DNA of 64,000 nt from Pseudomonadota bacterium (lineage in GTDB: Bacteria > Pseudomonadota > Gammaproteobacteria > QQUJ01). Both the position numbers and the translations under genes were made by a program. The DNA is taken from the NCBI GenBank assembly GCA_008501635.1, contig QQUJ01000025.1:32196-96195 (forward strand), given 5' to 3'. Below, in pieces: positions 50,186-64,000 of the stretch. The notes below the pieces were generated by a model, which was not told the origin of the DNA, ran no database searches, and saw only the letters and a list, made by a program, of their open reading frames with translations. Each line of letters starts with the position of its first letter. Positions within the stretch are counted from its first letter, which is position 1.

Positions 50186-50225
50186 CCCGAATGAGTGTTT
50201 CGGCCAAGGCTACGCCAGGGCATAG

Positions 50226-51296
50226 TGTAATCCCCCTATTTGTAATCCCCCATGGAAGTAGACGTAGGCTGCCAATGCCAGCGTTTGAATCGGGGTGATA
50301 CCTCCATTGGCCATGTTGGACCGTTCGTCATTGTAGCGCCATAGCCAGTCAGTGGCAGTTCGTTGTGCATGATCGATGGAATCGAACAGATGCTCGTCCA
50401 ACCACTCATGGCGGACAGTCCGATTGAAGCGTTCAACGTAGGCATTCTGAGTTAGCTTGCTGGGTTGGATAAACAACAAGCGGATATCTCGCTTTGCAGC
50501 CCAACTCTGGAACTTAGCACTGCACGTTTTGCGGCCATAGTCTGAGCGGACGACTTTTGGATTACCGCGCCATTCCATGATCTGATCCAGCGCTCGTACA
50601 ATGCGTGCGGCTGGCAAACCGAAATCAACTTCGATGCCCAGGCTCTCGCGATTATAATCGTCCAGCACATTGAAAGTGCGAAAGGCGGTACCGTTAGCCA
50701 GAGCATCATGCATGAAGTCGATCGACCAAACGGTATTGACCTGCCGAGGCACATCCAGCAGATTGGGTGAATCACGCCTCAGGCGGAGTCTGGACTTGAT
50801 GCGTAAATTTAACTCCAGCCCCCGGTAAATGCGGTAGACATGCTTATGGTTGTACGGCATACCTTTGGCGTTGCGAAGATATAGAAAGCACAGGCCAAAA
50901 CCCCAGCGACGGTTTGTGGTGATCTATCGCAGCGGCTAGTCGGCGATCAATGCATTGTCATCGTTGAGCTTCACCTGGTAGCGGTAGCGGGTCTCGGAAA
51001 TACCAAAAGTCTGGCAGGACAACCGGATAGATACGCCCTTCTCGGTAACTGCTCGTTGCGCCAGCTCTTTGCGTCGAGATGGTTTCACCACTTTTTTAGA
51101 GGGTCTCAGCGACTTCATGTTCGACGCATTCATGCCGCCATACTTGACGCACCACTTGTAAAACGAAGCATTGCTCATGCCGTACTTCCTGCACAGCTCC
51201 GGTACCGGAACGCCGGCATCGGCTTCTTCATTCGTAGAATCTCCTCTTGCAAGAAAATTCTACTCCCCGCGGCAACTATTTTCCGGGGGGATTACA
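50226..51296 (-). mobile_element. Degenerate IS3-family (IS407-group-like) element
   Basis: TGTAATCCCCC...GGGGGATTACA ends, OrfA remnant EADAGVPVPELCRKYG, A6G slippery site 51091-51097, Orf[21 protein letters not shown] with stops and deletions. Confidence 0.88.
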
Positions 51297-51562
51297 CATC
51301 CCCAGGTGCGAAAGATCGCGGTGGCCCTGCTGGGTACCATTGAAGAAGATCTCCGGAAGGCGACGGCGGTATCGAGAACGTCAACTCGTGTACCGACGCT
51401 AGGAAACCATGCGCACCTTGCAAGGTGAGGCGACCCGCTTTTTCGGCTTCTCGTCAGGCCAACTTCAGAATTTTAGTTCCCTTCCTTTTTCCATCCTCGT
51501 GTCTTTCCGTGAGTCTATTTGTGAGAGGTTGGCCAGCAGTACGAATCTAAATACAAAAATAT

Positions 51563-51663
51563 GTGCGTATAGCGCACTTTTAATCAGTGCTATTGACAAG
51601 TCTATGTTATGCGTAATAGGTTCTTTTTAACTATATATAAATATAAGTGTGCGTACTTCGCAC
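51563..51663. promoter_or_regulatory. Pair of 15-bp palindromic operators upstream of the UbiD gene
   Basis: GTGCG-TATAG-CGCAC (51563-51577) and GTGCG-TACTT-CGCAC (51649-51663). Confidence 0.6.
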
Positions 51664-51691
51664 ATACATTAGGGTCGAATGGGAGGAGACG

Positions 51692-53167
51692 ATGCGGGTC
51701 AAAAAACACGGTCAGATCTTGTCAAATCATACGCAGGGGGAAAACGCCGGAGGCGTGTCCTTCAACGATCTTAGGGGCTTCATAGCCCTTTTAGAGGAAG
51801 CAGGTGAACTAAAACGTATTTCAGCGGAAGTAGACTGGGACCTGGAGTTGTCTCATGTCGCTAAGCTTAACGAACAGAATGGAGGGCCAGCGTTGCTGTT
51901 CGAAAATGTAAAGGACTACGAGTGGCCGGTTTTCACCAGCGCTCTCGCCACCTCACAGCGTCTCGCTATCGCACTAGGCCTACCTAAGGAGACCTCCTTT
52001 ACTGAGTTGGCCAAGGCGTGGGTCATCAAGGTCAAAACTCGAATCCCTCCGAAAGAAGTAAAAAGTGGGCCGTGCAAGGAAAACATACTCCGCGGCGACG
52101 AGGTCAATTTGTTCGATTTCCCGGCTCCACGCTATTACGAGGGCGATGGTGGCCGATTCATTGGCACTACCCATTGCATCATCTCACGAAGCCCATCGTC
52201 AGGCTGGGTTAATCTGGGTACCCACCGCATGCAAATTCTCGACGAAAAATCGGCGGGCATCTGGATGATTCCTGGCAAGCATGTCCAGCTCCACCTTAAA
52301 GAGTACGAGGCTCTCGGCAAACCCATGCCTGTAGCAGTTGCCATCGGCGTTGATCCAACTGTCTTCCTAACCGCCAGCGCTCCAATTCCAGCTGAGGAGT
52401 GTGAGTACGACTATATCGGCGGTCTGCGCGGCTCCCCGATTGAGGTGGTACGCGGCGAGACTGTCGACCTCCCGGTCCCGGCCAACGCCGAGGTAATCCT
52501 GGAAGGCGAGGTCGACCCCATCGCGCTGCGCGACGAAGGTCCTTACGGTGAGTACTCCGGAACCTATCAAGCCGCCTACCCCAAGCCATTCATGAAAGTG
52601 AAGTGCATCACTCACCGTAATTCGCCCATACATTGGGGCTGCACTACTGGTAGACCCATCACGGACATTCATCAACTAATGGCCCTCAATCGCACGGCCA
52701 CCTTGTGGAGTGACCTACAGAATATGGGTATCCCCGGTATCGTAGGCGTTTATTGCCCACCGGAAACCGGCGGCTACTTCACAACCGTTGTCTCGGTAAA
52801 ACAGCTCTATGCTGGACACGCCCGCCAAGTAGGTACAGCCGTGCTGTCCTCGCCGTCGGGCGCCTATTCAACGAAGTTTGTGGTGGTCGTCGACGACGAC
52901 GTCGATCCCACCAATCTTAGCGAAGTTTGGTGGGCCATAGGAATGCGCTATCAACCCGACCGCGGTACCGACATCCTGCACCGCGGAATGCCCTCGCACA
53001 TCGACCCATCGCTGCATCATTCGGATAAGCATCACACATCGCGGGTAATAATCGACGCCACTGTCCCCTTCGAGTGGGCGCCCGAGGACAAACCGGAACT
53101 CATTGCCCTGACACCAGATATTGAAGCCAGAGTGCGGAAACGTTGGAACGAGCTCTTTTCCAGTTGA
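51692..53167 (+). CDS. UbiD-family prFMN (de)carboxylase, PpcB-like
   Basis: DLRGFI, GTHRMQ, EGPYGEY, VVVDDDVDP; GGAGGAG RBS; segments resemble the recalled phenylphosphate carboxylase beta subunit. Confidence 0.9.
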   Translation: MRVKKHGQILSNHTQGENAGGVSFNDLRGFIALLEEAGELKRISAEVDWDLELSHVAKLNEQNGGPALLFENVKDYEWPVFTSALATSQRLAIALGLPKETSFTELAKAWVIKVKTRIPPKEVKSGPCKENILRGDEVNLFDFPAPRYYEGDGGRFIGTTHCIISRSPSSGWVNLGTHRMQILDEKSAGIWMIPGKHVQLHLKEYEALGKPMPVAVAIGVDPTVFLTASAPIPAEECEYDYIGGLRGSPIEVVRGETVDLPVPANAEVILEGEVDPIALRDEGPYGEYSGTYQAAYPKPFMKVKCITHRNSPIHWGCTTGRPITDIHQLMALNRTATLWSDLQNMGIPGIVGVYCPPETGGYFTTVVSVKQLYAGHARQVGTAVLSSPSGAYSTKFVVVVDDDVDPTNLSEVWWAIGMRYQPDRGTDILHRGMPSHIDPSLHHSDKHHTSRVIIDATVPFEWAPEDKPELIALTPDIEARVRKRWNELFSS

Positions 53168-53206
53168 CTGCCCATTAAGTCTAATCGCGGGGTTCTGGGA
53201 GGTTTT

Positions 53207-53710
53207 GTGGAACGACTTGAGCAAATTCTGGCACGCATTACCGCTTTAGTGACCCGAGTGGTCGGGTGGATAATGGGTCTGATGGTTGTGCACATCGTCG
53301 TGGATGTGGCGATGAAGTACCTCTTCAATCAGCCAATCTTCGGCACCATCGAGGTCACCGAACACTACTACATGGTACCGGTGGTGTTCGGTGCACTGGT
53401 CTATCTTCAGGCCCTCCGTGGGCACGTCAAGGTGGAAATTTTTACTCTGGGTCTTCCGGTCGGAGGTCGCCGATTCCTCGATGGGATCGCAAGTTTAGCC
53501 ATGGCTGCATTCATGATGCTATTCAGCGCAGTGGGCTACGAAGAGGCCGTTGCCAGTACCGCTCGTCTCGAGTTGGTTGAGGCAGCGACCACAACTATCT
53601 ACATCTGGCCAGCTCGCTGGGTGTTGCCGCTCGCCGGCACTCTGGTGTCGCTAATCGCTCTGCTCCAAAGCGTCCAGCTACTGAGACCTGGAAGCAGGGT
53701 GGGCTGTTAA
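53207..53710 (+). CDS. dctQ: TRAP transporter small permease
   Basis: Four TM helices, GHVKVE motif, upstream of dctM. Confidence 0.85.
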   Translation: MERLEQILARITALVTRVVGWIMGLMVVHIVVDVAMKYLFNQPIFGTIEVTEHYYMVPVVFGALVYLQALRGHVKVEIFTLGLPVGGRRFLDGIASLAMAAFMMLFSAVGYEEAVASTARLELVEAATTTIYIWPARWVLPLAGTLVSLIALLQSVQLLRPGSRVGC

Positions 53711-53782
53711 CGGAGCGCCCCGAGCAATGTCGACGATCGCGGTAGTTACAGAAGTGATTGCGAAGCAGCCCCAGAACCTGCC

Positions 53783-55090
53783 ATGACGCCACTATCTGTG
53801 GGCTTTATCGGTCTAGCCACAATCTTTGTGCTACTAGCCCTGCGGACACCCATAGGCTTGGCGTTGATCGGCGTCTGTTTTATCGGTACTTGGACGATAA
53901 TTGGCCTAACCCCAGCACTGAGCATGCTCCGAATCATGCCCTATGAGTTTGTTGCCCATTGGAGTCTGTCTGCCATTCCCATGTTTTTGCTAATGGGTGC
54001 GATAAGCTACCACGCCGGCCTAGTCAGCACCCTTTACCGAGCAGCTCGACTATGGTTCTGGTTTGTACCTGGCAACTTGGCGATAGCGAGTAATTTCGCC
54101 TGCGCCGGTTTTGCGGCTGCCTCAGGCTCTAGCGTTGCTACAGCAACCGCCATGGGAAGGCTGACCATTCCGGAGATGCTACGCTGTCGCTACGACCCAG
54201 GCTTGGCCACAGGAGTTGTGGCGGCAGCTGGAACCCTCGGCTCACTGATCCCACCCAGCATCTTGCTGATTTTGTATGGCCTGTTCACTGAGCAATCGAT
54301 AAGCGCGCTACTGATGGCTGGAGTGTTGCCCGGCATCCTCACCGCAGTGGTTTACGCGGTGATGATCATTATAAGAGTGAGACATAACCCTTCCCTCGCC
54401 CCACCCATGGAGGGTCACATAAATCGAGCGGAGAAGTGGGAGGCGCTACGCGGCGCATGGCCGATTCCACTACTCATTCTCGGTGTGATAGGAGGCATCT
54501 ACAGCGGTATTTTGACCGCCACTGAAGCGGGAGCCGCTGGCGCATTCCTCGCGTTCCTCATCGGTGTCGCGCGCGGACAAATGACCCGCGCTGTGCTAGA
54601 TGAAAGTGTGCGCGAAGCCTTGGCTAGCACCGCTTTCATCTTTTTCATTGCCATAGGCGCTAGCTTATTGGCCAAATTCATGGTACTCAGCGGTATACCC
54701 ACTTACCTGGGCCAGTTGACCGTCCAGTGGTTTGATGGCCCACTCGGCCTGCTCATGGCGGCCTTCGTTATATTCTTGGTCCTTGGCATGTTCCTCGATC
54801 CGATCGGACTGATGCTGTTGTCAATCCCGGTGCTGCTTCCGATGTTCAAGCAGGCGGGTTTCGACTTAGTCTGGTTCGGCATCTTGGTCATCAAGTTTGT
54901 AGAAATTGGTTTGATAACGCCCCCAGTAGGGCTAAATATATATGCCATTAAGAGTGTCACGGGCGACGCGGTTCCTCTCGAAACTATCTTCAAGGGCGCG
55001 GCATGGTTTCTGCTGTGTGAGTTCATCGTTGTCGCGCTTTTGGTGGTCTTCCCTGACATCGCATTATTGCTACCGCGAATGATGCGATAG
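53783..55090 (+). CDS. dctM: TRAP transporter large permease
   Basis: AIPMFLLMG, SGSSVATA, GTLGSLIPPS, GLITPPVG. Confidence 0.95.
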   Translation: MTPLSVGFIGLATIFVLLALRTPIGLALIGVCFIGTWTIIGLTPALSMLRIMPYEFVAHWSLSAIPMFLLMGAISYHAGLVSTLYRAARLWFWFVPGNLAIASNFACAGFAAASGSSVATATAMGRLTIPEMLRCRYDPGLATGVVAAAGTLGSLIPPSILLILYGLFTEQSISALLMAGVLPGILTAVVYAVMIIIRVRHNPSLAPPMEGHINRAEKWEALRGAWPIPLLILGVIGGIYSGILTATEAGAAGAFLAFLIGVARGQMTRAVLDESVREALASTAFIFFIAIGASLLAKFMVLSGIPTYLGQLTVQWFDGPLGLLMAAFVIFLVLGMFLDPIGLMLLSIPVLLPMFKQAGFDLVWFGILVIKFVEIGLITPPVGLNIYAIKSVTGDAVPLETIFKGAAWFLLCEFIVVALLVVFPDIALLLPRMMR

Positions 55091-55145
55091 GAGAGACGGG
55101 ATGGCCGTAATCACTGCAAGTAAGTAGGCTATGGGAGAAACGACT

Positions 55146-56252
55146 ATGCGAACAAACGTTATTCTGACATCACTAGTACTCGGATTTGCCTTATTGCAGC
55201 CAACATCGCTGATCGCTGCCGAATTGCGATACGCTACCTATATTCCGGCAACCTCAAGTAATAACACCAAGGGTGTCCTGCCATTATTCGAGGCGGTGAA
55301 AGCCAATACCGGTGGTAGGCTGTCGTTCAGTTTTTATCCTGGAGGCCAACTCCTCGACGCCCGCGCAATGCTCTCCGGCATCAAGGACGGTATTGCCGAC
55401 GCAGGTTTTCTGGTAGTGCCTTACTACCCCAGTGAACTCAAGCATGCGGCCGTGATACCGGGTATGGTTACTTTCGGCAGCAATCCGGTCGCCACTGCTG
55501 GCGCAGTACTTGAGACATACCTACTCGACTGTCCCAAGTGTAATGCTGACTTCACCGACAATGGGGTTATTTTTCTGGCTGGCCACGCCACCACACCTTA
55601 CAATATCTTGTGCTCAAAACCTGTCGCTTCGGTCAATGATCTGAAGGGATTAAAAATGCGGACGGCCGGCGGCGGTCTGGCACGTGAAGTCGAAGCGCTC
55701 GGTGGGGTACCGGTCTCTATGACCTCCGGGGAGGTGTACGAAGGACTACAGCGCGGTCAAATCGATTGCGTAATCGCACCCAAGGCATGGTTGCGCCAAT
55801 ATAGCCTTGCTGAGGTTGTCAAGTTCATCTACGACGTACCACTGGGCAGCATCGGCGGTCTCGGCCTGATGACTATGAATATCAACAAGTGGAAGGGACT
55901 AGATGACGCCGATCGTACTATGATACTCAAGGAGTTACCTGGAATGGTCGCACGTGTGGTGCTTGACGGATACGTTGCTGACGACAAAATGGGGATCGAT
56001 GCTGCTGAAAAGGCGGGGATTGAGATCGTAGCCGCCCCACAGGAGCTACACGACAAACTAGCCATCTTCCGTCAAACCGAATTGGCAGAGGTTGAGCGCA
56101 GCGCAACCGAACGCGGAGTCGAGAATGCGCGGGAAATTACTGGTGCCTACCTCGACAACCTAAAAAAATGGAACAGTCTGGCCGAGGATATCGGCACCAA
56201 TAGTGACAAGTACCGCGAGGTGCTTTGGCGAGAGATCTACAGTAAACTTTGA
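55146..56252 (+). CDS. dctP: TRAP substrate-binding protein
   Basis: Signal peptide, FYPGGQL, DLKGLKMR, EVYEGLQRG; alternative start at 55131. Confidence 0.9.
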   Translation: MRTNVILTSLVLGFALLQPTSLIAAELRYATYIPATSSNNTKGVLPLFEAVKANTGGRLSFSFYPGGQLLDARAMLSGIKDGIADAGFLVVPYYPSELKHAAVIPGMVTFGSNPVATAGAVLETYLLDCPKCNADFTDNGVIFLAGHATTPYNILCSKPVASVNDLKGLKMRTAGGGLAREVEALGGVPVSMTSGEVYEGLQRGQIDCVIAPKAWLRQYSLAEVVKFIYDVPLGSIGGLGLMTMNINKWKGLDDADRTMILKELPGMVARVVLDGYVADDKMGIDAAEKAGIEIVAAPQELHDKLAIFRQTELAEVERSATERGVENAREITGAYLDNLKKWNSLAEDIGTNSDKYREVLWREIYSKL

Positions 56253-57084
56253 GTGTCCGGTCGTATACGAGCCGCCCGGCACTCGGGCGGCTCGCACCGG
56301 TGAGAAGCGCATTCCATGCTACACTGACGCTGAGTATAGATACAAAAAAGGACGATGGGGCGACCTAACAACACCGACCAGACCTAGTCAATTTTTAACT
56401 GGATAGTTTTACGCACGTCACAAGACAAAAATCTTCCACACTACCCGGACAAAAACTCGGCGTGACCCTGCAGGCAGTGAGTAACCTCCGATTAACCGTG
56501 CAGGCAGGGCCTGTCAACTATTTATTCGTACAAAGTCCACGCTTAGTTTGCCTCATTATGTATCAACACGCGGGGAGCGGTTGCTCTCCGTAGCAATCAT
56601 CTTCGCAGCATGTATGTCATATACGATTTGTCATATCGATAGCCACGGTCCTCCCAGATAGAGCGATGATTACTTGCACCTTCAGCGAACAAAGACGCCA
56701 ATTTTAAAGTCGGCATTTTGATTAAGTTCTCTCCTACCATTCCCTTCGCTTTGCTCAGCTCAAAGCGATATCCTTACCCGGAAGCAGAACATTCTCTCAA
56801 TCACAATTCAACGCTTTCTGTGGCCAATTAGGTGTGATGGTACTGCCGTATGCGGTTCGATCTCGATGTCGGCTATTGTGCAGATACGCTTGAAGTATTT
56901 CTCGTAGCTCGCTGCTCTTTGCACCCTGTCACTCCAATTGGGGAAAGCGCCACCGCATTCTTATGTGAACGTGGATTTCAAGAGTACCAACCGAACCTAA
57001 AAACCCATTACTGACACTAGGAGATTGACAGCGAGATTAGTGTCGCTGCGCATTTATTTGACCGGGTGAAACGGTGAATCCAGA

Positions 57085-57675
57085 TCAACCGTCGCCATAG
57101 CGCACCGCGTATTCGACCCGCAACGCTGCCAATGTGGTGGCCGCCTCTGCGCTGAAGTCAGCCCCTGTCCAAGCTCGGTGAAGCCCTTGACGGTAGTGTT
57201 TGGCATTGTGCCAATAGGTCAGCGCATTCGCCTTGTTATCGACGAAGTTGTTGCGGGTTCTCTTGACCACGGCGGGTGTGCCTGCGACGATCGAGTTGTC
57301 GGGTATCACAGTACCCTCGCGGACGATCGAACCGGGCGCGATAATGCAGTTGTCCCCCACGCGTGCATTGTCCATGATCACCGCATTGATACCGACTAGA
57401 CAGTTATTGCCAATCGTACAACCGTGCAATATGACATGATGGGTGATCGAGCAATAGTCCCCAATCACCGTGTCACCCTCCCAGCATGTGTGGATCATCA
57501 CGAAGTCCTGTATATTAGAGAAGCAACCAATGCGCACCGCATTCACCTCGGCTCGGACCACGCTATAAGGCCAGAATGACACCCCCTCTCCGACGGTCAC
57601 GTCACCGTAAATCTGCGTAGTCTGATGAATATATGCATTGTCGTGGATCATCACCTTCGGTCCATAATTAGTCAT
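57085..57675 (-). CDS. Gamma-carbonic-anhydrase-family hexapeptide protein (PaaY/CaiE-like)
   Basis: IYGDVTVG, SNIQDFVMIH, THHVILHGCTIG left-handed beta-helix. Confidence 0.9.
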   Translation of the reverse strand: MTNYGPKVMIHDNAYIHQTTQIYGDVTVGEGVSFWPYSVVRAEVNAVRIGCFSNIQDFVMIHTCWEGDTVIGDYCSITHHVILHGCTIGNNCLVGINAVIMDNARVGDNCIIAPGSIVREGTVIPDNSIVAGTPAVVKRTRNNFVDNKANALTYWHNAKHYRQGLHRAWTGADFSAEAATTLAALRVEYAVRYGDG

Positions 57676-57829
57676 TCGGGACTCCTCGTCCAGTATATTG
57701 CCCCCGTAGGCACACCGCTTGTGCAGCTGTTTCCTGCACCTGCACTGGCAGGGCTATTCAGTTTCCCTCTATTCTTGATGGTGCAACCTCTTCCGTTGTG
57801 CACCTCGCATGAACTCCACCAGATTTACT

Positions 57830-58741
57830 TTACCCAGGACTACGACTAGTTGGCCGGGCAACCAACCACGAGGCAGTCACCAAGAGCACTAATCCGACGG
57901 AGTGGTAGCGCTCAAAGACCTCTCCAAGCAGTATGATCGCCATGAGAACACCGAAACTCAGGATCAGATAGGAGATGATCCCAGCGCGGTTTGCACCTAA
58001 GAGTTCGACGACACGATTGTACGAAAGGTGGGCGATTATCGACGAGAATAAGGCGAGAAACAGAATAGCTACGACGGTGTCGCCGGTAAACGGGAATGCC
58101 TCGATTGTCAATGTTTCCCAAATATATAATGGCAATAGCTGCAACAATCCGAAGATTACCGCAAAAGCCATAAAGCTTGCGGGATGAATGGACGGGCGTT
58201 TGGGAAGCAGGACGGTGTAGAGGGCCCAAGTTACGGTCGCTGCGAAAACCCACAAATCACCGGAGTTGAATATAAACTCCGATATTCGGAATAAATCACC
58301 GCGCAGAATTATAACCACAGTGCCTAGTAATCCACAGATCAAACCAATCAGAATGGTGTTGCGTACACTGACTTGAAACAATAAAAAAGATAGCAGTACG
58401 ATGATTGCGGGACGGGACGAGTTAATCAACAGTGCGTTAACGGCGGTGGTCCGCTCCAGTCCGAGATAAATGAATGTATTGAATCCGCTGATCGCGAGGG
58501 CAGCTAATAAGAACATCCAACGCCATTGACTGCGCACCACAGGCCAATCCTCACGCAAATGTGGCCAAGCTAGCGCCAGTAGTATTGGCACCGTCGGTAC
58601 CCAGCGCCAGAAGTTGAGACCGATAGGAGGAACTAGGTCGTGTATGCCACGTCCGACGATGATATTGCTCGCCCACACAAGGGCGGCAATCACCATCAAC
58701 ACATACCCCTGGTCGTAGATCCAGCGCTTCATCCTGGTCAC
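57830..58741 (-). CDS. EamA/DMT-family exporter
   Basis: Ten hydrophobic segments, VWASNIIVGR, GDLWV, LGANRAG. Confidence 0.9.
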   Translation of the reverse strand: MTRMKRWIYDQGYVLMVIAALVWASNIIVGRGIHDLVPPIGLNFWRWVPTVPILLALAWPHLREDWPVVRSQWRWMFLLAALAISGFNTFIYLGLERTTAVNALLINSSRPAIIVLLSFLLFQVSVRNTILIGLICGLLGTVVIILRGDLFRISEFIFNSGDLWVFAATVTWALYTVLLPKRPSIHPASFMAFAVIFGLLQLLPLYIWETLTIEAFPFTGDTVVAILFLALFSSIIAHLSYNRVVELLGANRAGIISYLILSFGVLMAIILLGEVFERYHSVGLVLLVTASWLVARPTSRSPG

Positions 58742-58870
58742 ACAAAGATCCTCTGAGGCACATACGCGTTCATTCTATGATTGCAAAATAGTGTGCGTAT
58801 TGGACAACTTAAACACTCATACGATGTCACCGAGCACGCTGCAACTGAAAGATCTACCGTTACAAGTTCT

Positions 58871-60331
58871 TTATAGCCTCACGCAGATATTCTGAAGCTC
58901 GGTGTAAAATTCTAGAGAGTGGACCCCCCCTTCGCGGCCAATACCGGAGTGTTTACTTCCACCAAATGGTGTACGTAAATCACGCAACATCCAACTGTTC
59001 ACCCAGCAAACTCCAACATCCAACCGCTGCGCGACACGGTGCGTACGGCTAGCATTTTCACTCCATAGTGCCGCACCTAGGCCATAGCGTGTGTCGTTGG
59101 CCAGTGCGATCACCTCTTCCTCACTATCAAAGGGACGTACGTGACAACACGGGCCGAAGATTTCCTCGCGCACAATGACAGAGTCATCCGAGAGGCCCGT
59201 CCAGATAGTAGGCTGCACCCATGCGCCACCTGCTAACTCACCAGGCATTTCTGGTACGCCGCCTCCCGTTATTACAGTAGCGCCTTGTTCAATTGCTCGC
59301 TTGTAGTACACCAATACTTTGTCGCGATGGTTCTGACTAATCAATGGGCCAAGGGTTGTTCCAGGGTGATTCCACGCGCCAAGCACCAAGTGTTCTGCGC
59401 CGGTCTTCAGCCGGACCACAAATTCGTCAAAGATCGCTCGCTCTACGTAAAGGCGTTCGGTGCTAAGGCAGATTTGACCGCAGTTATCGAACACCGAACG
59501 CAGTGTGCCCGCGACGGCCTTGTTCATATCACAGTCGGCAAAAACGATGCCGGGGTTCTTACCTCCTAACTCGAAACTGATATCGCGCACGCCGTTCGCT
59601 GCAGCACGCATGATAGTCTCTCCCGTGCTCGTTTCACCGGTAAAGGTAATCGCATCCACATCGGGATGCTCCGTAAGGAAGGTACCAGCTGAGTTGGGCC
59701 CAAAACCGTGCACCACGTTGTACACGCCCGGCGGTACGCCTGCCGTGTTCATTACCTCGCCTAGCAACGCGGCGGTTGTGGGTGTTTCCTCGGAGGGTTT
59801 GACCACCACTGAATTTCCACAGGCCAATGCCGGGGCGACCTTCCAAGTCATCAGTAGCAACGGCATATTCCAAGGGCTAATTACACCAATCACACCCTTG
59901 GGTTTGCGCACAGTGTAATTAAGCGCACCTGCACTATCTGTAGTGTCAAGCATAAAGCTCTCGGCGGCAAAACCCTTTAGAGCTTCGGCGAAGAAACTGA
60001 AATTAGCTGCACCGCGGGGAATATCAATTTGACTAGCTACTTGCTTCGGCTTACCAGTGTCCCCGCATTCGGCGTCGAGGAACTCATCAAAACGTGCATT
60101 GATACCATCAGCGATACGGTGCAAGATCGCCGTACGCTCGTCTAGCGAAAGACGGCTCCAAGGACCTCGCAACGCGGCGCGTGCCGCAGAAACCGCAGCG
60201 TCGATCTCTTCGTGACCTCCCTCGTGGGTCTCACCGATCTTTACTCCAGTCGCCGGGTCGCGGTTGGCGAAGCGCCGGTCGCTGACCGAACCGACGTGTT
60301 TGCCGTTGATGAAATGTTTGACTTCTCGCAT
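58871..60331 (-). CDS. dmpC: 2-hydroxymuconic semialdehyde dehydrogenase-type ALDH
   Basis: MREVKHFING, IDIPRGAANF, FELGGKN, GQICLSTERLY, EGGVHSLEFYTE closely follow recalled DmpC/XylG; start inferred. Confidence 0.85.
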   Translation of the reverse strand: MREVKHFINGKHVGSVSDRRFANRDPATGVKIGETHEGGHEEIDAAVSAARAALRGPWSRLSLDERTAILHRIADGINARFDEFLDAECGDTGKPKQVASQIDIPRGAANFSFFAEALKGFAAESFMLDTTDSAGALNYTVRKPKGVIGVISPWNMPLLLMTWKVAPALACGNSVVVKPSEETPTTAALLGEVMNTAGVPPGVYNVVHGFGPNSAGTFLTEHPDVDAITFTGETSTGETIMRAAANGVRDISFELGGKNPGIVFADCDMNKAVAGTLRSVFDNCGQICLSTERLYVERAIFDEFVVRLKTGAEHLVLGAWNHPGTTLGPLISQNHRDKVLVYYKRAIEQGATVITGGGVPEMPGELAGGAWVQPTIWTGLSDDSVIVREEIFGPCCHVRPFDSEEEVIALANDTRYGLGAALWSENASRTHRVAQRLDVGVCWVNSWMLRDLRTPFGGSKHSGIGREGGVHSLEFYTELQNICVRL

Positions 60332-60642
60332 GTCATTCTCCATCCTCTCGAATCTTCTGGAAGTCGCGAGTTGAAGTGCCATTGTCCCACATGCTCGCAG
60401 CCCCCATCTTGCGCCAAACTGACACCAGCACTCTCTCTTAATCAATATCAAAGTTGGCCAGTGAAAACGATCACTTCCCAATTCTATTGCTCTCGACCCC
60501 TCGGCAAATTCGTCACGCACCCTTTGTAGCTCGCTGCGATCCAGTATTGAACCGGTCTCGGGCACCCACAGACAATATCTGAACCCTAGAATCAACTGCT
60601 CCGATTGAGTCTTTACATCTGACATTCAGGGCCGGAAAAAAT

Positions 60643-62157
60643 CTACGTCATCTTCGTGAGTTGGCTCTTCCAAATTTTGCCGGTGGGACCGACGGGCAAT
60701 GCTGCCACTAACACCACTTTATTCGGCCGCTTGTATGGTGAGAGGAGAGGTGTGACGTGTTCGCCAATATCAGCATCGCTCATCTTCCATCCAGGCAAGG
60801 GTTGAACGAAGGCGATGATCTCCTCGTCACTGCCCCTCACCGGACGACCAATAACGGCGCATTGGGCCACGCCTGGATGGCTGGCGATGGCAGTTTCAAC
60901 CTCGCCAGGATAGACATTGAATCCGGACCGAATAATTATCTCCTTCGTCCGTCCGACAATGGCATAGTTACCACACGGAAGCCTAATGGCCAGATCGCCC
61001 GTGACAAACCATCCATCGGGTCGAAAAACGCTAGCAGTGGCTTCGGGGTTACGATAGTACCCCATCATGAGCGATGGTCCTCGGACCCACAGTTCCCCGA
61101 CTTCGCCGTCAGTAACGTCACGGTTCTTAGCAACAATCTTAATTTCAATGCCTCCCTGGGGAATCCCCACGCTTTCCGATGCAGCGTTTGTACCCAGCTC
61201 TGTGCGAAGTATCGGTGTGCATTCGGTCATCGCGAAACCGTTGCAAAGAGGCATACCAAACAACTGTTCGACCCTCGCTTTCAAGCTGGGGTCGAGGGGG
61301 GCTCCACCTGTAATCAGATTGCGTAAACGATGCCCCGTCAGGTTACGGTCTCGCTGCTGCAGATAATCCAAGAGGCGTGTGAACAATGTTGGCACACCCA
61401 TCAACACAGTTATTTCTCCCCGCTTAAGTGCGCCCTCCAAATCTTCTAAATCAAGCCGCGGCACCAGCCGTGTAGTCGCTCCAGCCCACACGCTGGTCAT
61501 GATGTACATTGCCACCCCCATGATGTGGGAGAGTGGTGCCAGACCGTACAACCGGTCCTCCGGACCGATTCTCCGAGCAGTCGACGTACTCGACCCCATG
61601 TTGAGCAAAGCACGGTGACTAAGCATCACACCCTTAGGTTGCCCGGTGGTTCCAGAGGTAAACAGCAGCAACCCCACCTGCCGGTCATTTTCCGGATGGA
61701 CTCGTTCAGGTACCGCCGCCGCGTCTGTGGCTCCGAAGGCTACTTTACCGGTGGGAAGGTCTAGAATCTCGGTATCCGTAGCGGCGGTATGGTTCAACGC
61801 CGCGTGTGAATTTTCAATGATGTAGGCAATCAAGCGGGCCCCAAGGGACTGTTTCATCGCCGAGATCTCACACTCGGAAACTCGTGCGTTGACTATCGCT
61901 GGCCACGCGTCAATACGTTGTGCAGCAAACATCAGCACTACGGTACTGATGCTATTTTCAGCCACAATCATAATCCTATCACCCGGCCGCACCCCACGAT
62001 CGACGAGAGTATCGACCGACGCGGATATGGCTGCCGACAGTTCACTGTAGCTCACTCGATCGCTACCGACTTCCTCAAAGGCCGTCTGTTCGGGTGCCTC
62101 ACGTGCCCAATGCAAAACTGGTTCATACGCGCGCGCAGGCAGGTCTGAAATCGCCAC
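60643..62157 (-). CDS. Acyl-CoA synthetase (candidate hydroxycinnamoyl-CoA ligase)
   Basis: FTSGTTGQPKG, GFAMTE, FVTGD, PVGPTGKIWK; directly downstream of the HCHL gene. Confidence 0.88.
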   Translation of the reverse strand: MAISDLPARAYEPVLHWAREAPEQTAFEEVGSDRVSYSELSAAISASVDTLVDRGVRPGDRIMIVAENSISTVVLMFAAQRIDAWPAIVNARVSECEISAMKQSLGARLIAYIIENSHAALNHTAATDTEILDLPTGKVAFGATDAAAVPERVHPENDRQVGLLLFTSGTTGQPKGVMLSHRALLNMGSSTSTARRIGPEDRLYGLAPLSHIMGVAMYIMTSVWAGATTRLVPRLDLEDLEGALKRGEITVLMGVPTLFTRLLDYLQQRDRNLTGHRLRNLITGGAPLDPSLKARVEQLFGMPLCNGFAMTECTPILRTELGTNAASESVGIPQGGIEIKIVAKNRDVTDGEVGELWVRGPSLMMGYYRNPEATASVFRPDGWFVTGDLAIRLPCGNYAIVGRTKEIIIRSGFNVYPGEVETAIASHPGVAQCAVIGRPVRGSDEEIIAFVQPLPGWKMSDADIGEHVTPLLSPYKRPNKVVLVAALPVGPTGKIWKSQLTKMT

Positions 62158-62172
62158 CGCTGTATCTGCCCG

Positions 62173-63027
62173 TCACGTTTCCCGGCGGTAAGCTTGCAGC
62201 CCAGGCTTATATGATTTCTCGTCGAGGAACTGTCTCATACCCTTTTCACGACCACGCTCCGGATCGAGTGCAATGGTTTGGTCGAGCTTGGCGCGCAGGT
62301 ATTCAGACGATTGCTCCCACGACAGGCTCTTCGACATCTTGATGGCGGTTTTTGTCGCCCGCACCACCATCGGATTTTTCTCCAAGAGACTCTTTGCCAC
62401 CTCGATAGTTCTGTCCTTAAGGCGACCTTTAGGAACAGCCTCGTTAACCAACCGCATATCCACAGCCTTTCGGCCGTCGAAATTCTCACCGGTCATGGCG
62501 TAGTAAAGGGCGTCGCGCTGGCTCATGACCTCGGTCAGTACTTTAGAGACGATTCCCCCGGGGATGATGCCCCAGTTCACCTCAGACAGCCCGAAAACGG
62601 CATCCTCGGCTGCAATAGCGAGATCGCAAGCGACCAGCGGAGTGAATGCACCGCCGAAACACCAGCCGTTGACCATAGCAATGGTCGGCTTCGGATAGTC
62701 TACAAGGCGGCCCCATTGCCAAGCCGCATTAGCGCGATAGACTTGCGCTTTTTCCATCGGGCTCATCTTATCTACGGCACGGAAGTAGTCTTGGAGATCC
62801 ATACCTGCAGACCACGAATCGCCGACGCCGGTCAATACCAATACGCCGCAGGATTCGTCTAGTTCCAACGCATCCAACGTGGCGAGCATCTCGAACGCCA
62901 ACTCAGCACTCATCGCATTGAGTTTCGCCGGACGATTGATCGCTACCCAAGCTATTCCGTCTGCAATGTCAACAACTACGTCCTTACCCCACGGTTTACC
63001 TTCATGTACAGTGTTCGAGTTACTCAT
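62173..63027 (-). CDS. ech: p-hydroxycinnamoyl-CoA hydratase/lyase (HCHL)
   Basis: SAGMDLQDYFR, KPTIAMVNGWCFGG, FGLSEVNWGI, QFLDEKSYKPGLQAY follow recalled Pseudomonas HCHL. Confidence 0.92.
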   Translation of the reverse strand: MSNSNTVHEGKPWGKDVVVDIADGIAWVAINRPAKLNAMSAELAFEMLATLDALELDESCGVLVLTGVGDSWSAGMDLQDYFRAVDKMSPMEKAQVYRANAAWQWGRLVDYPKPTIAMVNGWCFGGAFTPLVACDLAIAAEDAVFGLSEVNWGIIPGGIVSKVLTEVMSQRDALYYAMTGENFDGRKAVDMRLVNEAVPKGRLKDRTIEVAKSLLEKNPMVVRATKTAIKMSKSLSWEQSSEYLRAKLDQTIALDPERGREKGMRQFLDEKSYKPGLQAYRRET

Positions 63028-63070
63028 CAAATGTTCCCCTTACTGAATAGACTTGATTTGACGTAATCCC

Positions 63071-64000
63071 TTACGCTTCGGCGGCAAACAACCCCCCGCC
63101 CGCAGCCAGTCGGGACAGGTGATGATCGGCATCTCCGAATAGAATATCGATCGCTGTGAGACGTTGCACGTAATGTCCGATATCATGCTCAATAGCGAGC
63201 CCAATGCCGCCATGAAGCTGAATCGCCTGCTGGCCGATCAGACGTGCCGAACGACCGATTTGCACTTTGACGGCCGCCAGCGCCTGCCGTCGTTCACGCG
63301 CGTTCGAATAGTCAGCCATCATCGTACCGAACATCGCCATACTGCGACTCTGCTCGAGTGATACCAACATGTCGACAGCACGGTGCTGAAGTACCTGGAA
63401 CTTACCAATAGCAGTGCCGAATTGGACGCGGGTTTTGAGGTACTCGACGGTCCTCTCGTGTGCGGCAGTCATCGCCCCCACTGCTTCAGCAGCTAAGGCC
63501 GCGATGGCATGGTCAAGTACCCGTTCAATGATTGGTAGGGCTTCGTCGGCATTACCAATCACCGACTCTGGTCCTACTCTCACGCCGGTCATCACTACAT
63601 CCGCGGCGCGTCGCCCGTCAATGGTCGCGTAAGCCGTGCGTAGCAATCCATGGGCGGTGTCATCAACCAAAAACAAACCTATCCTGCTTTTGCCTGGGTG
63701 GCCGGTCTCCGTACGAGCTGTAATGATCAAGGCATCAGCACAATCGCCGTGCAACACCATGGTCTTGGCGCCGTCGAGCACCCAGCCGTCTCCGTCATGC
63801 CTGGCCGTGGTCCTGACGTGCGCCGGGTCATGACGTGATGTTGACTCAGTGTGCGCGAATGCGAGTCGCCATTCGCCTGAGACGATGCGCGGTAAAAGTG
63901 CCTTACACTGCTCATCATCGCCGCCCTCGCGTATCAACCCCCCACCTAATACCACTGTTGCCAGATAGGGCTCGAGAGCGAGAGCACGTCCCAACGCCTG
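63071..64000 (-). CDS. Acyl-CoA dehydrogenase (PimD-like), 5' end outside the window
   Basis: LAFAHTE, RVQFGTAIGKFQVLQHR, QLHGGIG; ORF open at the window edge. Confidence 0.9.
   Translation of the reverse strand, partial: QALGRALALEPYLATVVLGGGLIREGGDDEQCKALLPRIVSGEWRLAFAHTESTSRHDPAHVRTTARHDGDGWVLDGAKTMVLHGDCADALIITARTETGHPGKSRIGLFLVDDTAHGLLRTAYATIDGRRAADVVMTGVRVGPESVIGNADEALPIIERVLDHAIAALAAEAVGAMTAAHERTVEYLKTRVQFGTAIGKFQVLQHRAVDMLVSLEQSRSMAMFGTMMADYSNARERRQALAAVKVQIGRSARLIGQQAIQLHGGIGLAIEHDIGHYVQRLTAIDILFGDADHHLSRLAAGGGLFAAEA

What the first reader, a model, noticed from the sequence alone, without database searches (positions are those of the whole stretch)
51300..64000. Lower-GC aromatic island: hydroxycinnamate cleavage paired with a prFMN (de)carboxylase
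Seen: composition drops (hand counts: 25/60 GC at 58321-58380 vs 43/60 at 40441-40500) with many CTA/TTA/ATA codons. The minus strand carries acyl-CoA dehydrogenase, HCHL, CoA ligase, ALDH, EamA and gamma-CA; the plus strand carries UbiD and a TRAP transporter. Established: CoA ligase + HCHL + ALDH (+ acyl-CoA DH, as in Acinetobacter hca) turn (dihydro)coumarate, caffeate or ferulate into hydroxybenzoates. Inference: the UbiD enzyme could then decarboxylate these to phenols or catechols, or carboxylate an intermediate; this would be an oxygenase-independent lignin-monomer route acquired horizontally by a probable sulfur-oxidiser lineage.
Basis: partly seen in the sequence, partly recalled or inferred. 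Interest (0 to 1): 0.72.

Follow-up and report, generated by a model that had tools for sequence, protein, structure and literature searches.

The report
IS-bounded aromatic-acid catabolic island

Summary
GC falls from 0.607 to 0.536 at about 50.2 kb. Island genes have GC3 of 0.58 against 0.73 in core genes, and four times more CTA/TTA/ATA codons. The island runs at least 25 kb, from an IS3 transposase to a high-copy IS at the contig end.

The minus-strand operon (PimCD-like acyl-CoA dehydrogenase, HCHL, CoA ligase, aldehyde dehydrogenase, EamA, hexapeptide protein) is a plausible (dihydro)hydroxycinnamate-to-hydroxybenzoate module. It is an unusual variant: HCHL has Arg in place of the phenol-binding Tyr239, and the dehydrogenase is of the 2-amino/hydroxymuconate-semialdehyde type.

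The proposed pairing with the prFMN enzyme is not supported:
- HCHL sits near the UbiD clade in 0 of about 11 independent loci.
- A UbiD sits near HCHL in 1 of 80 genome loci, and it belongs to another clade.
- The UbiD promoter carries two palindromes that occur nowhere else in the island.
- The host has genuine phenylphosphate synthase and carboxylase, so decarboxylating 4-hydroxybenzoate to phenol would be futile.

The UbiD clade instead travels with TRAP or TAXI importers and CoA-activating enzymes in anaerobes. Its substrate is unknown. Hydroxybenzoates most likely enter the host's benzoyl-CoA pathway, as in Rhodopseudomonas palustris.

The parts
50210..51178 (-). IS3-type transposase (orfB with rve domains 50210-50860; short orfA-like frame 50936-51178). 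It marks the left edge of the low-GC island.
   Evidence: Pfam rve and rve_3. GC drops here. The same layout is seen in contigs from other sequencing runs.
51563..51663 (+). Two operator-like palindromes (GTGCG-N5-CGCAC at 51563-51577 and 51649-51663) in the AT-rich region just upstream of the UbiD start codon.
   Evidence: 2 matches against 0.21 expected in the window. No exact match elsewhere in the island; the three one-mismatch matches were not examined beyond one, which lies inside the MmgE/PrpD gene. Only 10 other exact matches in the 3.9-Mb genome.
51692..53167 (+). Stand-alone PpcB-like UbiD-family (prFMN-dependent) (de)carboxylase, 491 aa.
   Evidence: Pfam UbiD_N, UbiD and UbiD_C. 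TIGR02724 scores 471.5 against a cut-off of 468.95. 48% identical to the host's own PpcB. 72% identical to homologues in anaerobe MAGs. Closest solved structure is 7PDA, the phenazine-1-carboxylate decarboxylase PhdA (PMC10850782).
53207..56252 (+). TRAP transporter DctQ (53207-53710), DctM (53783-55090) and DctP solute receptor (55131-56252). With 39-72 bp gaps it is in one operon with UbiD.
   Evidence: Pfam DctQ, DctM and DctP. The DctP lineage is rare: the nearest independent relatives are 85% identical, then 48% or less in marine Rhodobacterales. No informative solved homologue.
57085..57675 (-). Hexapeptide-repeat protein, gamma-carbonic-anhydrase/PaaY-like. Last gene of the minus-strand operon.
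   Evidence: Pfam Hexapep. Gamma-CA scores 127 bits and PaaY 115 bits, both below their cut-offs.
57830..58741 (-). EamA-family (drug/metabolite transporter) membrane protein.
   Evidence: Pfam EamA, two stretches.
58871..60343 (-). Aldehyde dehydrogenase of the 2-hydroxy/2-aminomuconate semialdehyde dehydrogenase clade, 490 aa. The true start is M95 of the 584-codon frame.
   Evidence: TIGR03216 scores 834.6 against a cut-off of 693. 58% identical to P. fluorescens AMSDH, with Arg120, Arg464, Glu268 and Cys302 conserved.
60584..60589 (.). Point in the 299-bp ligase-ALDH spacer where a related metagenome contig (L014) carries a 1.17-kb IS. The 6 bases appear on both sides of that IS.
   Evidence: blastn alignment of L014 to the island at 94-95% identity. 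Gene map of L014.
60643..62157 (-). AMP-forming acyl-CoA ligase, 504 aa.
   Evidence: Pfam AMP-binding. No NCBIfam model above cut-off. Best solved relatives tie at about 203 bits: malonyl-CoA synthetase 4FUQ and feruloyl-CoA synthetase 8WEV.
62173..63030 (-). Hydroxycinnamoyl-CoA hydratase-lyase (HCHL) family enzyme, 285 aa, with Arg at the Tyr239 position.
   Evidence: NF006588 scores 410.8 against a cut-off of 276. 347 bits and 57% identity to P. fluorescens HCHL. Glu143 and Tyr75 are kept, Ser123 is Thr, and Tyr239 is Arg.
63071..64000 (-). PimD-like small subunit of a two-subunit acyl-CoA dehydrogenase. The gene runs to about 64231, and the PimC-like large subunit follows beyond the window.
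   Evidence: The full-length proteins score 500 bits on TIGR03203 and 563 bits on TIGR03204.

Best explanation
The stretch is the first half of a horizontally acquired catabolic island of at least 25 kb. It runs from window position about 50.2 kb to the contig end at the equivalent of about 75.7 kb. An IS3 transposase bounds it on the left and a high-copy IS on the right. It is a mosaic of independent units.

Unit A is the minus-strand operon: PimC-PimD-HCHL-ligase-ALDH-EamA-hexapeptide protein. It shortens the C3 side chain of a 3-arylpropionate or cinnamate-type acid. The ligase makes the CoA ester. The PimCD-like dehydrogenase desaturates dihydro forms. HCHL hydrates and cleaves the enoyl-CoA to acetyl-CoA plus an aromatic aldehyde. 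The ALDH oxidises that aldehyde to the benzoate. The most likely substrates are p-coumarate or 3-(4-hydroxyphenyl)propionate and relatives. The product, 4-hydroxybenzoate, would enter the host's anaerobic hydroxybenzoate/benzoyl-CoA route.

Unit B is the plus-strand operon UbiD-DctQMP. It is a self-contained uptake-plus-(de)carboxylation unit for a different aromatic carboxylate that is not yet identified. It depends on the genome's only UbiX, which lies in the phenol cluster on another contig. It is not a dedicated downstream step of unit A.

Shown: gene identities, composition, boundaries, conservation patterns and the host pathways. Inferred: the substrates, the direction of the UbiD reaction and the metabolic hand-over to benzoyl-CoA.
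For: Island status:
- GC and codon shift.
- IS3 at the left edge.
- The contig ends in an IS whose ends also terminate most other contigs of the assembly.
- This UbiD is absent from 40 relatives, including the same genus, and the only HCHL found among them (in the same-genus genome) is just 56% identical.

Unit A:
- HCHL is above its family cut-off, with Glu143 and Tyr75 conserved.
- The genes are tightly spaced on one strand.
- Two-subunit PimCD-like dehydrogenases lie directly next to HCHL homologues in about 10 of 80 genome loci. One example is Neorhizobium galegae, with a FerA-like ligase and an ALDH in the same cluster.
- The same five genes occur at 94-99% protein identity on a transposase-flanked metagenome contig.
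- The genome has no catechol 2,3-dioxygenase. The muconate-semialdehyde-type ALDH therefore has no classical meta-cleavage job here.

Unit B as a separate unit:
- In about 11 independent loci of the UbiD clade (64-91% identity), HCHL, PimCD and this ALDH type are never present.
- A TRAP or TAXI transporter is adjacent in about 7 of those loci, and an AMP-ligase or CoA-transferase in about 7.
- The operator-like palindromes occur only at the UbiD promoter.
- There is a single UbiX, at C3:53137-53676.

Host sink:
- Oah scores 718 bits, above its cut-off.
- The genome has the genuine cluster PpsAB, PpcB (831 bits), PpcD and PpcA (968 bits).
- Precedent: the R. palustris cou cluster (PMC3610893).
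Against: - No expression or biochemical data exist.
- HCHL lacks Tyr239, a residue shown to matter for binding the phenolic substrate. I recall this from Bennett et al. 2008 and have not re-read the paper.
- The ALDH keeps both arginines that bind the distal carboxylate in AMSDH.
- The ligase resembles malonyl-CoA synthetase as much as feruloyl-CoA synthetase.
- PimCD acts on a dicarboxylyl-CoA. Unit A could therefore act on a carboxylated or non-phenolic substrate.
- The link from 4-hydroxybenzoate to benzoyl-CoA is not secured. The only HcrA-like enzyme scores 638 bits against a cut-off of 994 and resembles xanthine dehydrogenase about equally.
- Both units share the same codon bias and are adjacent in every sampled copy of this island, so a metabolic link cannot be excluded.
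- One related HCHL locus (L016) does carry a UbiD of another clade.
Confidence: 0.55

Rival explanations
1. Units A and B form one pathway in which the UbiD enzyme decarboxylates the hydroxybenzoates made by HCHL and ALDH to phenols or catechols, or carboxylates an intermediate.
For: - The two units are adjacent, and all island genes share the same codon bias.
- They are together in every sampled copy of the island.
- The UbiD is a paralogue (48%) of an enzyme that interconverts a phenol derivative and 4-hydroxybenzoate.
- One HCHL locus elsewhere (L016) has a UbiD two genes away.
Against: - HCHL is adjacent in 0 of about 11 independent UbiD-clade loci. A UbiD is adjacent in 1 of 80 HCHL loci. 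Both that UbiD and the one in L016 are only 36% identical to this one.
- The host encodes phenylphosphate synthase and carboxylase. Phenol formed from 4-hydroxybenzoate would have to be re-carboxylated at the cost of ATP.
- The operons are convergent and share no operator.
- A TRAP importer in the UbiD operon implies an external substrate.
- All copies are the same island at about 100% identity, so they do not count as independent evidence.
Confidence: 0.1
2. A modified pairing. Unit A acts on a phenylpropanoid or other acid that carries an extra carboxylate, for example 5-carboxyferulate from lignin dimers or a carboxyphenylpropionate. This yields an aromatic dicarboxylate, and the UbiD enzyme removes the surplus carboxyl group to give (hydroxy)benzoate for the benzoyl-CoA pathway. 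The TRAP system also imports such dicarboxylates from outside.
For: There is a consistent 'second anionic group' signature in unit A:
- Arg replaces Tyr239 only in the nine closest HCHL homologues.
- The ALDH keeps the two carboxylate-binding arginines of AMSDH.
- The ligase ties with malonyl-CoA synthetase.
- The dehydrogenase is PimCD-like.

Other support:
- One Arg239-type HCHL locus (L016) carries both an Amidohydro_2 (LigW-type fold) gene and a UbiD gene.
- PpcA/UbiD-like enzymes are the proposed decarboxylases for terephthalate in anaerobes (PMC9516798).
Against: - Arginines could equally bind a phenolate. This is inference.
- Two other Arg239-type loci (L018, L019) have no decarboxylase within 10 kb.
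- No UbiD-clade locus has HCHL.
- The chemistry and the natural substrate are speculative.
Confidence: 0.1
3. The TRAP system is a TarPQM-like hydroxycinnamate importer that serves unit A. The UbiD gene is a passenger, namely the remnant of a larger UbiD cluster truncated by the IS3 insertion, with little or no role.
For: [quoted passage not shown]
- A DctM gene lies within 10 kb of HCHL in 11 of 80 loci.
- The TRAP proteins here are not orthologous to those beside the 72% UbiD homologues: DctM is 32-34% identical, and the order is QMP rather than PQM.
- The usual partners of the UbiD clade (a ligase overlapping its start, a second UbiD, Amidohydro_2, OYE) are missing from the whole genome, and an IS3 sits exactly where they would be.
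- DctM is split in two in some copies of the island.
Against: - UbiD and DctQ are 39 bp apart, behind a promoter region with its own palindromes.
- The UbiD frame is intact, with the Arg and Glu residues of the family motifs visible in the alignment to 7PDA.
- TRAP or TAXI genes accompany the UbiD clade in about 7 of 11 independent loci and come from different transporter lineages. This argues for a functional link between uptake and this enzyme.
- The nearest DctP relatives in Rhodobacterales sit with no HCHL.
Confidence: 0.15
4. Unit A is not a phenylpropanoid pathway at all. It shortens a non-phenolic (alicyclic, aliphatic or otherwise substituted) dicarboxylic acid by a hydratase-aldolase step.
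For: - Tyr239 is absent.
- PimCD-like, MatB-like and AMSDH-like affinities.
- The rest of the island holds glutamate-mutase-like genes, MmgE/PrpD and a DUF35/thiolase pair.
Against: - HCHL is 57% identical to the characterised enzyme, with Glu143 and Tyr75 kept.
- In 80 genome loci Tyr239 is present in only 24, and the PimCD-linked homologues in ferulate-type clusters also lack it. Loss of Tyr239 therefore does not argue against hydroxycinnamates.
- As far as I recall, no non-aromatic substrate is known for this family.
Confidence: 0.1

Closest known systems
Rhodopseudomonas palustris cou cluster (CouA hydratase-lyase, CouB p-coumarate-CoA ligase, CouR, with the CouPSTU ABC and TarPQM TRAP importers), feeding 4-hydroxybenzoate into the anaerobic benzoyl-CoA pathway (PMC3610893)
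   Same: CoA-dependent, non-beta-oxidative side-chain cleavage by a ligase plus an HCHL-type enzyme. A TRAP transporter at the same locus. A host with an anaerobic benzoyl-CoA pathway (Oah).
   Different: - Here a two-subunit PimCD-like dehydrogenase, a muconate-semialdehyde-type ALDH, an EamA protein and a hexapeptide protein are in the operon.
- No MarR-type regulator was seen.
- The TRAP genes are co-transcribed with a UbiD enzyme, not with the cou-like genes.
- Sequence relatedness to CouA, CouB and TarP was not tested, because those sequences were not at hand.
   Same: 57% identity to the P. fluorescens enzyme. Catalytic Glu143 and substrate-binding Tyr75 are conserved. There is a neighbouring ligase, ALDH and acyl-CoA dehydrogenase.
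   Different: - Tyr239 is Arg and Ser123 is Thr.
- The ALDH is not of the vanillin-dehydrogenase type: ALDHs beside 80 other HCHL genes are at most 41% identical to it.
- The dehydrogenase has two subunits.
- The host lacks the oxygenase tested for here, catechol 2,3-dioxygenase.
Phenylphosphate carboxylase beta subunit (PpcB) of anaerobic phenol metabolism (TIGR02724)
   Same: Best-scoring named family, just above the cut-off. 48% identical to the host's own PpcB.
   Different: - It is stand-alone. No alpha, gamma or delta subunit genes and no phenylphosphate synthase genes lie next to it.
- The genuine set, with a PpcB scoring 831 bits, lies on another contig.
- It is co-transcribed with a carboxylate importer.
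UbiD-type aryl-carboxyl-CoA decarboxylases of anaerobic phthalate and isophthalate degradation, and the PpcA/UbiD-like candidates for terephthalate (PMC9516798, PMC13040137)
   Same: In anaerobes the clade is found with an importer and a CoA ligase or class III CoA-transferase, as those systems are.
   Different: - It is only distantly related to solved phthaloyl-CoA decarboxylase (64 bits).
- No ligase or transferase is present in this operon.
- No substrate is known for the clade.
2-Aminomuconate / 2-hydroxymuconate semialdehyde dehydrogenase (PDB 4I1W; TIGR03216)
   Same: 58% identity, above the family cut-off, with Cys302, Glu268, Arg120 and Arg464 conserved.
   Different: - It sits in an HCHL operon.
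- The genome has no catechol 2,3-dioxygenase to supply the usual substrate.
- It has probably been recruited to an aromatic aldehyde of similar length that bears an anionic group. This is inference.

Membership tests
HCHL (p-hydroxycinnamoyl-CoA hydratase/lyase) | Score above the curated cut-off of NF006588 | tested here: met
   410.8 bits against a cut-off of 276.
HCHL (p-hydroxycinnamoyl-CoA hydratase/lyase) | Catalytic Glu143 (P. fluorescens numbering) | tested here: met
   GLSEVNWG aligns with GLSEINWG. The residue is invariant in 122 aligned sequences.
HCHL (p-hydroxycinnamoyl-CoA hydratase/lyase) | Tyr75 and Tyr239, which bind the substrate's phenolic hydroxyl | tested here: inconclusive
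   Tyr75 is kept and Tyr239 is Arg. Tyr239 is present in only 24 of 80 homologues from genomes, so it does not define the whole family.
HCHL (p-hydroxycinnamoyl-CoA hydratase/lyase) | Cleavage of 4-hydroxycinnamoyl-CoA esters to aldehyde plus acetyl-CoA | not testable with these tools
   Needs an enzyme assay.
Hydroxycinnamate catabolic cluster (hca/cou/fer type) | Ligase, HCHL and aldehyde dehydrogenase encoded together | tested here: met
   All lie on one strand within 4.2 kb. The ligase and ALDH belong to other subfamilies than usual.
Phenylphosphate carboxylase beta subunit (PpcB) | Score above the TIGR02724 cut-off | tested here: met
   471.5 against 468.95, so marginal. The host's genuine PpcB scores 831.
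Phenylphosphate carboxylase beta subunit (PpcB) | Encoded with the alpha, gamma and delta subunits and phenylphosphate synthase | tested here: not met
   Its neighbours are an IS3 element and TRAP genes. The Pps/Ppc set is on contig C3.
UbiD superfamily (prFMN-dependent) | Three UbiD domains, and a prFMN synthase (UbiX) in the genome | tested here: met
   Pfam UbiD_N, UbiD and UbiD_C. One UbiX at C3:53137-53676 scores 231.6 bits.
VdcC/ShdC-type hydroxyarylic acid decarboxylase | Score above the NF041204 cut-off, with small B and D subunit genes adjacent | tested here: not met
   339 bits against a cut-off of 650. The next gene, 39 bp downstream, is DctQ.
2-Hydroxy/aminomuconate semialdehyde dehydrogenase | Family score, the catalytic Cys/Glu pair and the two carboxylate-binding arginines | tested here: met
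   834.6 bits against a cut-off of 693. Arg120, Glu268, Cys302 and Arg464 are conserved.
2-Hydroxy/aminomuconate semialdehyde dehydrogenase | Part of a meta-cleavage pathway with an extradiol dioxygenase | tested here: not met
   No catechol 2,3-dioxygenase in the 98%-complete genome (best 20.7 bits). Aminophenol and 3-hydroxyanthranilate dioxygenases were not tested.
Genomic island (horizontally acquired) | Deviant composition, mobile elements at the edges, absence from close relatives | tested here: met
   The empty-site test failed because the sister genome's contig ends 137 bp past phaC.

The most novel reading that the evidence does not exclude
The stand-alone PpcB-like UbiD with its importer is a free-acid (or CoA-ester) decarboxylase for an aromatic dicarboxylate, such as a phthalate isomer, hydroxyisophthalate or 5-carboxyvanillate. 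The Arg239-type HCHL operon beside it produces exactly such dicarboxylates from carboxylated phenylpropanoids. The island would then encode a previously undescribed anaerobic funnel from carboxylated lignin fragments or plastic-derived diacids into benzoyl-CoA.
Probability: 0.1. Interest if true: 0.7.

Novelty: new variant of a known kind. Interest (0 to 1): 0.35.

Why it matters
If unit A works as inferred, an uncultured sulfur-oxidising gammaproteobacterial lineage can feed plant phenylpropanoids into an oxygen-independent benzoyl-CoA pathway. It would do so with an unusual enzyme set: Arg239 HCHL, a recruited muconate-semialdehyde-type dehydrogenase and a two-subunit acyl-CoA dehydrogenase. 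That widens the range of organisms and enzymes relevant to lignin-monomer turnover in anoxic sediments.

The more open question is the PpcB-like UbiD clade. It is common in Desulfobacterota and Chloroflexi MAGs. It is routinely auto-annotated as phenylphosphate carboxylase beta subunit, yet it lacks the partner subunits and travels with importers and CoA-activating enzymes. Finding its substrate would correct a widespread annotation. It could also bear on the unresolved anaerobic terephthalate route.

Tried and rejected
- Empty-site test in the sister species: its contig ends 137 bp beyond phaC, so the insertion site cannot be reconstructed.
- Shared regulation: the GTGCG-N5-CGCAC palindromes upstream of UbiD have no exact counterpart anywhere else in the island. 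Of the three one-mismatch matches, the only one examined lies inside the MmgE/PrpD gene. This is only weak negative evidence.
- Promoter conservation: the region upstream of the 91%-identical UbiD (L003) is unrelated to ours.
- Ligand inference for DctP from solved structures: the best hit scores only 79 bits, so there is no usable ligand information.
- Securing the step from 4-hydroxybenzoate to benzoyl-CoA: the only xanthine-oxidase-family candidate (C12) scores below the HcrA, HcrB and HcrC cut-offs and resembles xanthine dehydrogenase equally. Inconclusive.
- I first read the near-identical L014 contig as proof of transfer between distant hosts. I rejected this because L014 carries the same high-copy IS as this genome and is 95% identical at the DNA level, so it probably comes from a close relative.
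- I first thought that loss of Tyr239 argued against hydroxycinnamates. I rejected this because only 24 of 80 homologues have Tyr239, and the PimCD-linked ones in ferulate-type clusters also lack it.
- Searching the genome for the UbiD clade's usual partners (second UbiD, 434-aa protein, Amidohydro_2, that PrpD type, OYE) found no close homologues.

Full report
**Observation.** The window is C2:32196-96195 of a 3.93-Mb, 30-contig genome with 59.6% GC. GC is 0.607 up to 50200 and 0.536 from there to 64000. The low-GC stretch continues for another 11.7 kb to the contig end. It forms five consecutive 5-kb windows near the 5th percentile of the genome. Seventeen island genes have GC3 of 0.583 and 32.4 CTA+TTA+ATA per 1000 codons. 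Ten core genes of the same window have 0.731 and 7.5.

**Anatomy.**
- Left edge: an IS3-type transposase lies at 50210-51178 on the minus strand.
- UbiD promoter: an AT-rich region follows, with two GTGCG-N5-CGCAC palindromes at 51563 and 51649.
- Plus-strand operon: UbiD (51692-53167, with an RBS in front of the ATG), then DctQ, DctM and DctP, with gaps of 39-72 bp.
- Minus-strand operon, converging on the first: a PimC-like large subunit and a PimD-like small subunit of an acyl-CoA dehydrogenase. These two genes overlap by 4 bp, and the large subunit lies beyond 64000. Then come HCHL, an AMP-forming ligase, a 299-bp spacer, an ALDH, EamA and a gamma-CA/PaaY-like hexapeptide protein.
- ALDH start: the ALDH frame has a 94-codon extension with no homology. 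The real start is M95.
- Beyond the operon: an MmgE/PrpD gene; glutamate-mutase-like E, S and L genes; a GntR regulator; a DUF35/thiolase pair; and an unknown 501-aa frame.
- Right edge: the contig ends in 270 bp of an IS whose two ends also terminate most other contigs of the assembly.

**Unit A, the HCHL operon.**

*HCHL.* It scores 410.8 bits on NF006588 against a cut-off of 276. It is 57% identical to the P. fluorescens enzyme. Glu143 and Tyr75 are conserved, Ser123 is Thr, and Tyr239 is Arg. From memory of Bennett et al. 2008, Tyr239 and Tyr75 bind the phenolic hydroxyl. Arg at this position is restricted to the nine closest homologues at 75-99% identity. However, only 24 of 80 homologues from species-representative genomes have Tyr239, so the residue does not define the family.

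*Acyl-CoA dehydrogenase.* About ten of the 80 HCHL loci have a two-subunit PimCD-like dehydrogenase directly beside HCHL. All ten have Thr, Ala or Ser at position 239. One of them, in Neorhizobium galegae, sits in a cluster with a FerA-like ADP-forming ligase and an ALDH. The dehydrogenase-HCHL pairing is therefore a recurring feature of plausible (dihydro)ferulate clusters.

*ALDH.* It is atypical. It scores 834.6 bits on TIGR03216 and is 58% identical to 2-aminomuconate semialdehyde dehydrogenase. The catalytic Cys302 and Glu268 and both carboxylate-binding arginines are conserved. ALDHs beside the other 80 HCHL genes are at most 41% identical to it. The genome has no catechol 2,3-dioxygenase, so the enzyme is not doing its textbook job. 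I infer that it was recruited. 4-Hydroxybenzaldehyde, as the phenolate, is planar and has about the same span between the aldehyde carbon and the anionic oxygen as 2-hydroxymuconate semialdehyde.

*Ligase.* It matches no specific model. It ties between malonyl-CoA synthetase and a feruloyl-CoA synthetase among solved structures.

*Alternative.* Taken together, these features also allow a substrate with a second anionic group. I keep this as a rival.

**Unit B, UbiD plus TRAP.** The UbiD scores 471.5 bits on the PpcB model against a cut-off of 468.95. It has none of the partner genes. It is 48% identical to the host's genuine PpcB. Its closest solved relative is PhdA (PMC10850782).

Close homologues are one metagenome sequence at 91% identity, then sequences at 64-73% from Thermodesulfobacteriota, Desulfatiglans and Chloroflexi. 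I examined about 11 independent loci of this clade: L003, L004/L107, L005/L006, L108, L109, L120-L123 and L125.
- HCHL, PimCD and the ALDH type of unit A never occur in them.
- A TRAP or TAXI system is adjacent in about seven.
- An AMP-ligase or class III CoA-transferase is present in about seven.
- In the Desulfobacterota loci the recurring order is GntR, a second UbiD, a 434-aa protein, a ligase that overlaps the UbiD start, UbiD, a transporter, Amidohydro_2, MmgE/PrpD and an old-yellow-enzyme homologue.

None of those partners has a close homologue in this genome. The TRAP proteins here are not orthologous to those loci: DctM is 32-34% identical and the gene order differs. The DctP lineage is rare. 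After an 85% relative, its next relatives are at most 48% identical and come from marine Rhodobacterales, where the locus has neither UbiD nor HCHL. Recurrent association with importers of different descent suggests that the enzyme acts on an imported carboxylate. The substrate is unknown. The genome's single UbiX lies in the phenol cluster on C3.

**Are the two units one pathway?** The comparative evidence says no.
- HCHL is present in 0 of about 11 UbiD-clade loci.
- A UbiD is present in 1 of 80 HCHL loci, and it is 36% identical. A further metagenome locus (L016) also has a 36%-identical UbiD.
- The palindromes are exclusive to the UbiD promoter.
- The island appears with the same layout in at least 24 contigs from many sequencing runs. 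These are essentially identical copies and are not independent.
- A 95%-identical variant (L014) covers only PimC through ALDH. It has a 1.17-kb IS in the ligase-ALDH spacer, and this IS is the same high-copy element as in this genome, so L014 is probably from a close relative.

Physiology also argues against the proposed decarboxylation. Contig C3 carries PpsA and PpsB, PpcB (831 bits), PpcD, PpcA (968 bits), a further UbiD, a PaaK-like ligase and UbiX. This is the ATP-dependent route from phenol to 4-hydroxybenzoate, so the reverse reaction would be futile.

**Host and sink.**
- The genome has SoxB at 824 bits.
- It has Oah of the benzoyl-CoA pathway at 718 bits.
- Oah is also present in the sister species. 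PpcA is found only in this genome among 41.
- The sister species has a different HCHL, 56% identical, next to a ligase and an MFS transporter.
- The dehydroxylation step is not secured. The only HcrA-like protein is below its cut-off and is equally similar to xanthine dehydrogenase.
- The closest described system is the R. palustris cou cluster, which also has a TRAP importer (PMC3610893).

**Verdict.** The hydroxycinnamate-cleavage reading and horizontal acquisition are supported, with caveats. The UbiD pairing is not supported. The island is a mosaic of a variant HCHL operon and an uncharacterised UbiD-importer unit. Interest is moderate to low for the finding as framed. The UbiD clade itself deserves biochemical attention.

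Noticed in passing
own genome, contig C3:41000-53700 (L013:7069-19728): A complete anaerobic phenol cluster: phenylphosphate synthase PpsA and PpsB, PpcB (831 bits), PpcD, PpcA (968 bits), a further 453-aa UbiD, a PaaK-like ligase and the genome's only UbiX. PpcA occurs in this genome alone among 41 relatives.
   Followed up: partly
window 60584-60589; contig C2 end (window equivalent 75460-75729); ends of most G000 contigs; L014:7803-8971: A high-copy IS of about 1.17 kb (DDE_Tnp_1) breaks the assembly at most contig ends. In the related contig L014 it sits in the ligase-ALDH spacer, with an apparent 6-bp duplication.
   Followed up: partly
L016:14412-19334, L018:3339-8261, L019:1952-6875: The Arg239-type HCHL homologues in three metagenome or MAG loci lie next to a conserved trio. 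It consists of an AMP-ligase, an FAD_binding_5/CO_deh_flav_C protein, and a 798-aa protein with an N-terminal 2Fe-2S domain fused to a DMSO-reductase-family molybdopterin domain. This could be an undescribed aryl-CoA reductase or hydroxylase. This genome has 32-36% homologues of the molybdopterin protein on C4 and C13.
   Followed up: no
L004, L107, L108, L109: Desulfobacterota MAGs share a conserved cluster of unknown function around the PpcB-like UbiD. The order is GntR, a second UbiD (32% identical), a 434-aa protein with a weak radical-SAM hit, an AMP-ligase overlapping the UbiD start, UbiD, TRAP or TAXI, Amidohydro_2, MmgE/PrpD and an old-yellow-enzyme homologue.
   Followed up: partly
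L002:2808-12043 (window equivalent 65612-74847): The rest of the island holds MmgE/PrpD, glutamate-mutase-like E (331 bits, below its cut-off), S and L genes, a GntR regulator, a DUF35/thiolase pair and an unknown 501-aa frame. It may be a third, unrelated catabolic unit.
   Followed up: no
L115:2136-3444 and L118:4458-5766: In two copies of the island from other sequencing runs, DctM is split into 201-aa and 227-aa frames. This is either a frameshift in those populations or an assembly error.
   Followed up: no
own genome, C12:24090-27700 (L105:10052-13735): A three-subunit xanthine-oxidase-family enzyme scores about equally on the 4-hydroxybenzoyl-CoA reductase and xanthine dehydrogenase models, below all cut-offs. 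It lies next to a methylmalonyl-CoA-mutase-like gene and an acyl-CoA dehydrogenase.
   Followed up: partly
window 60344-60625: The ALDH frame stays open for 94 codons upstream of its homology-supported start. Automatic gene calls in other assemblies report 584 aa, which is probably a miscalled start or the remnant of another gene.
   Followed up: partly
L003:2023-5075: The closest independent relative of the UbiD (91% protein, 83% DNA identity) is followed by a class III CoA-transferase and a ThDP enzyme instead of TRAP genes. Its upstream region is unrelated to ours.
   Followed up: partly
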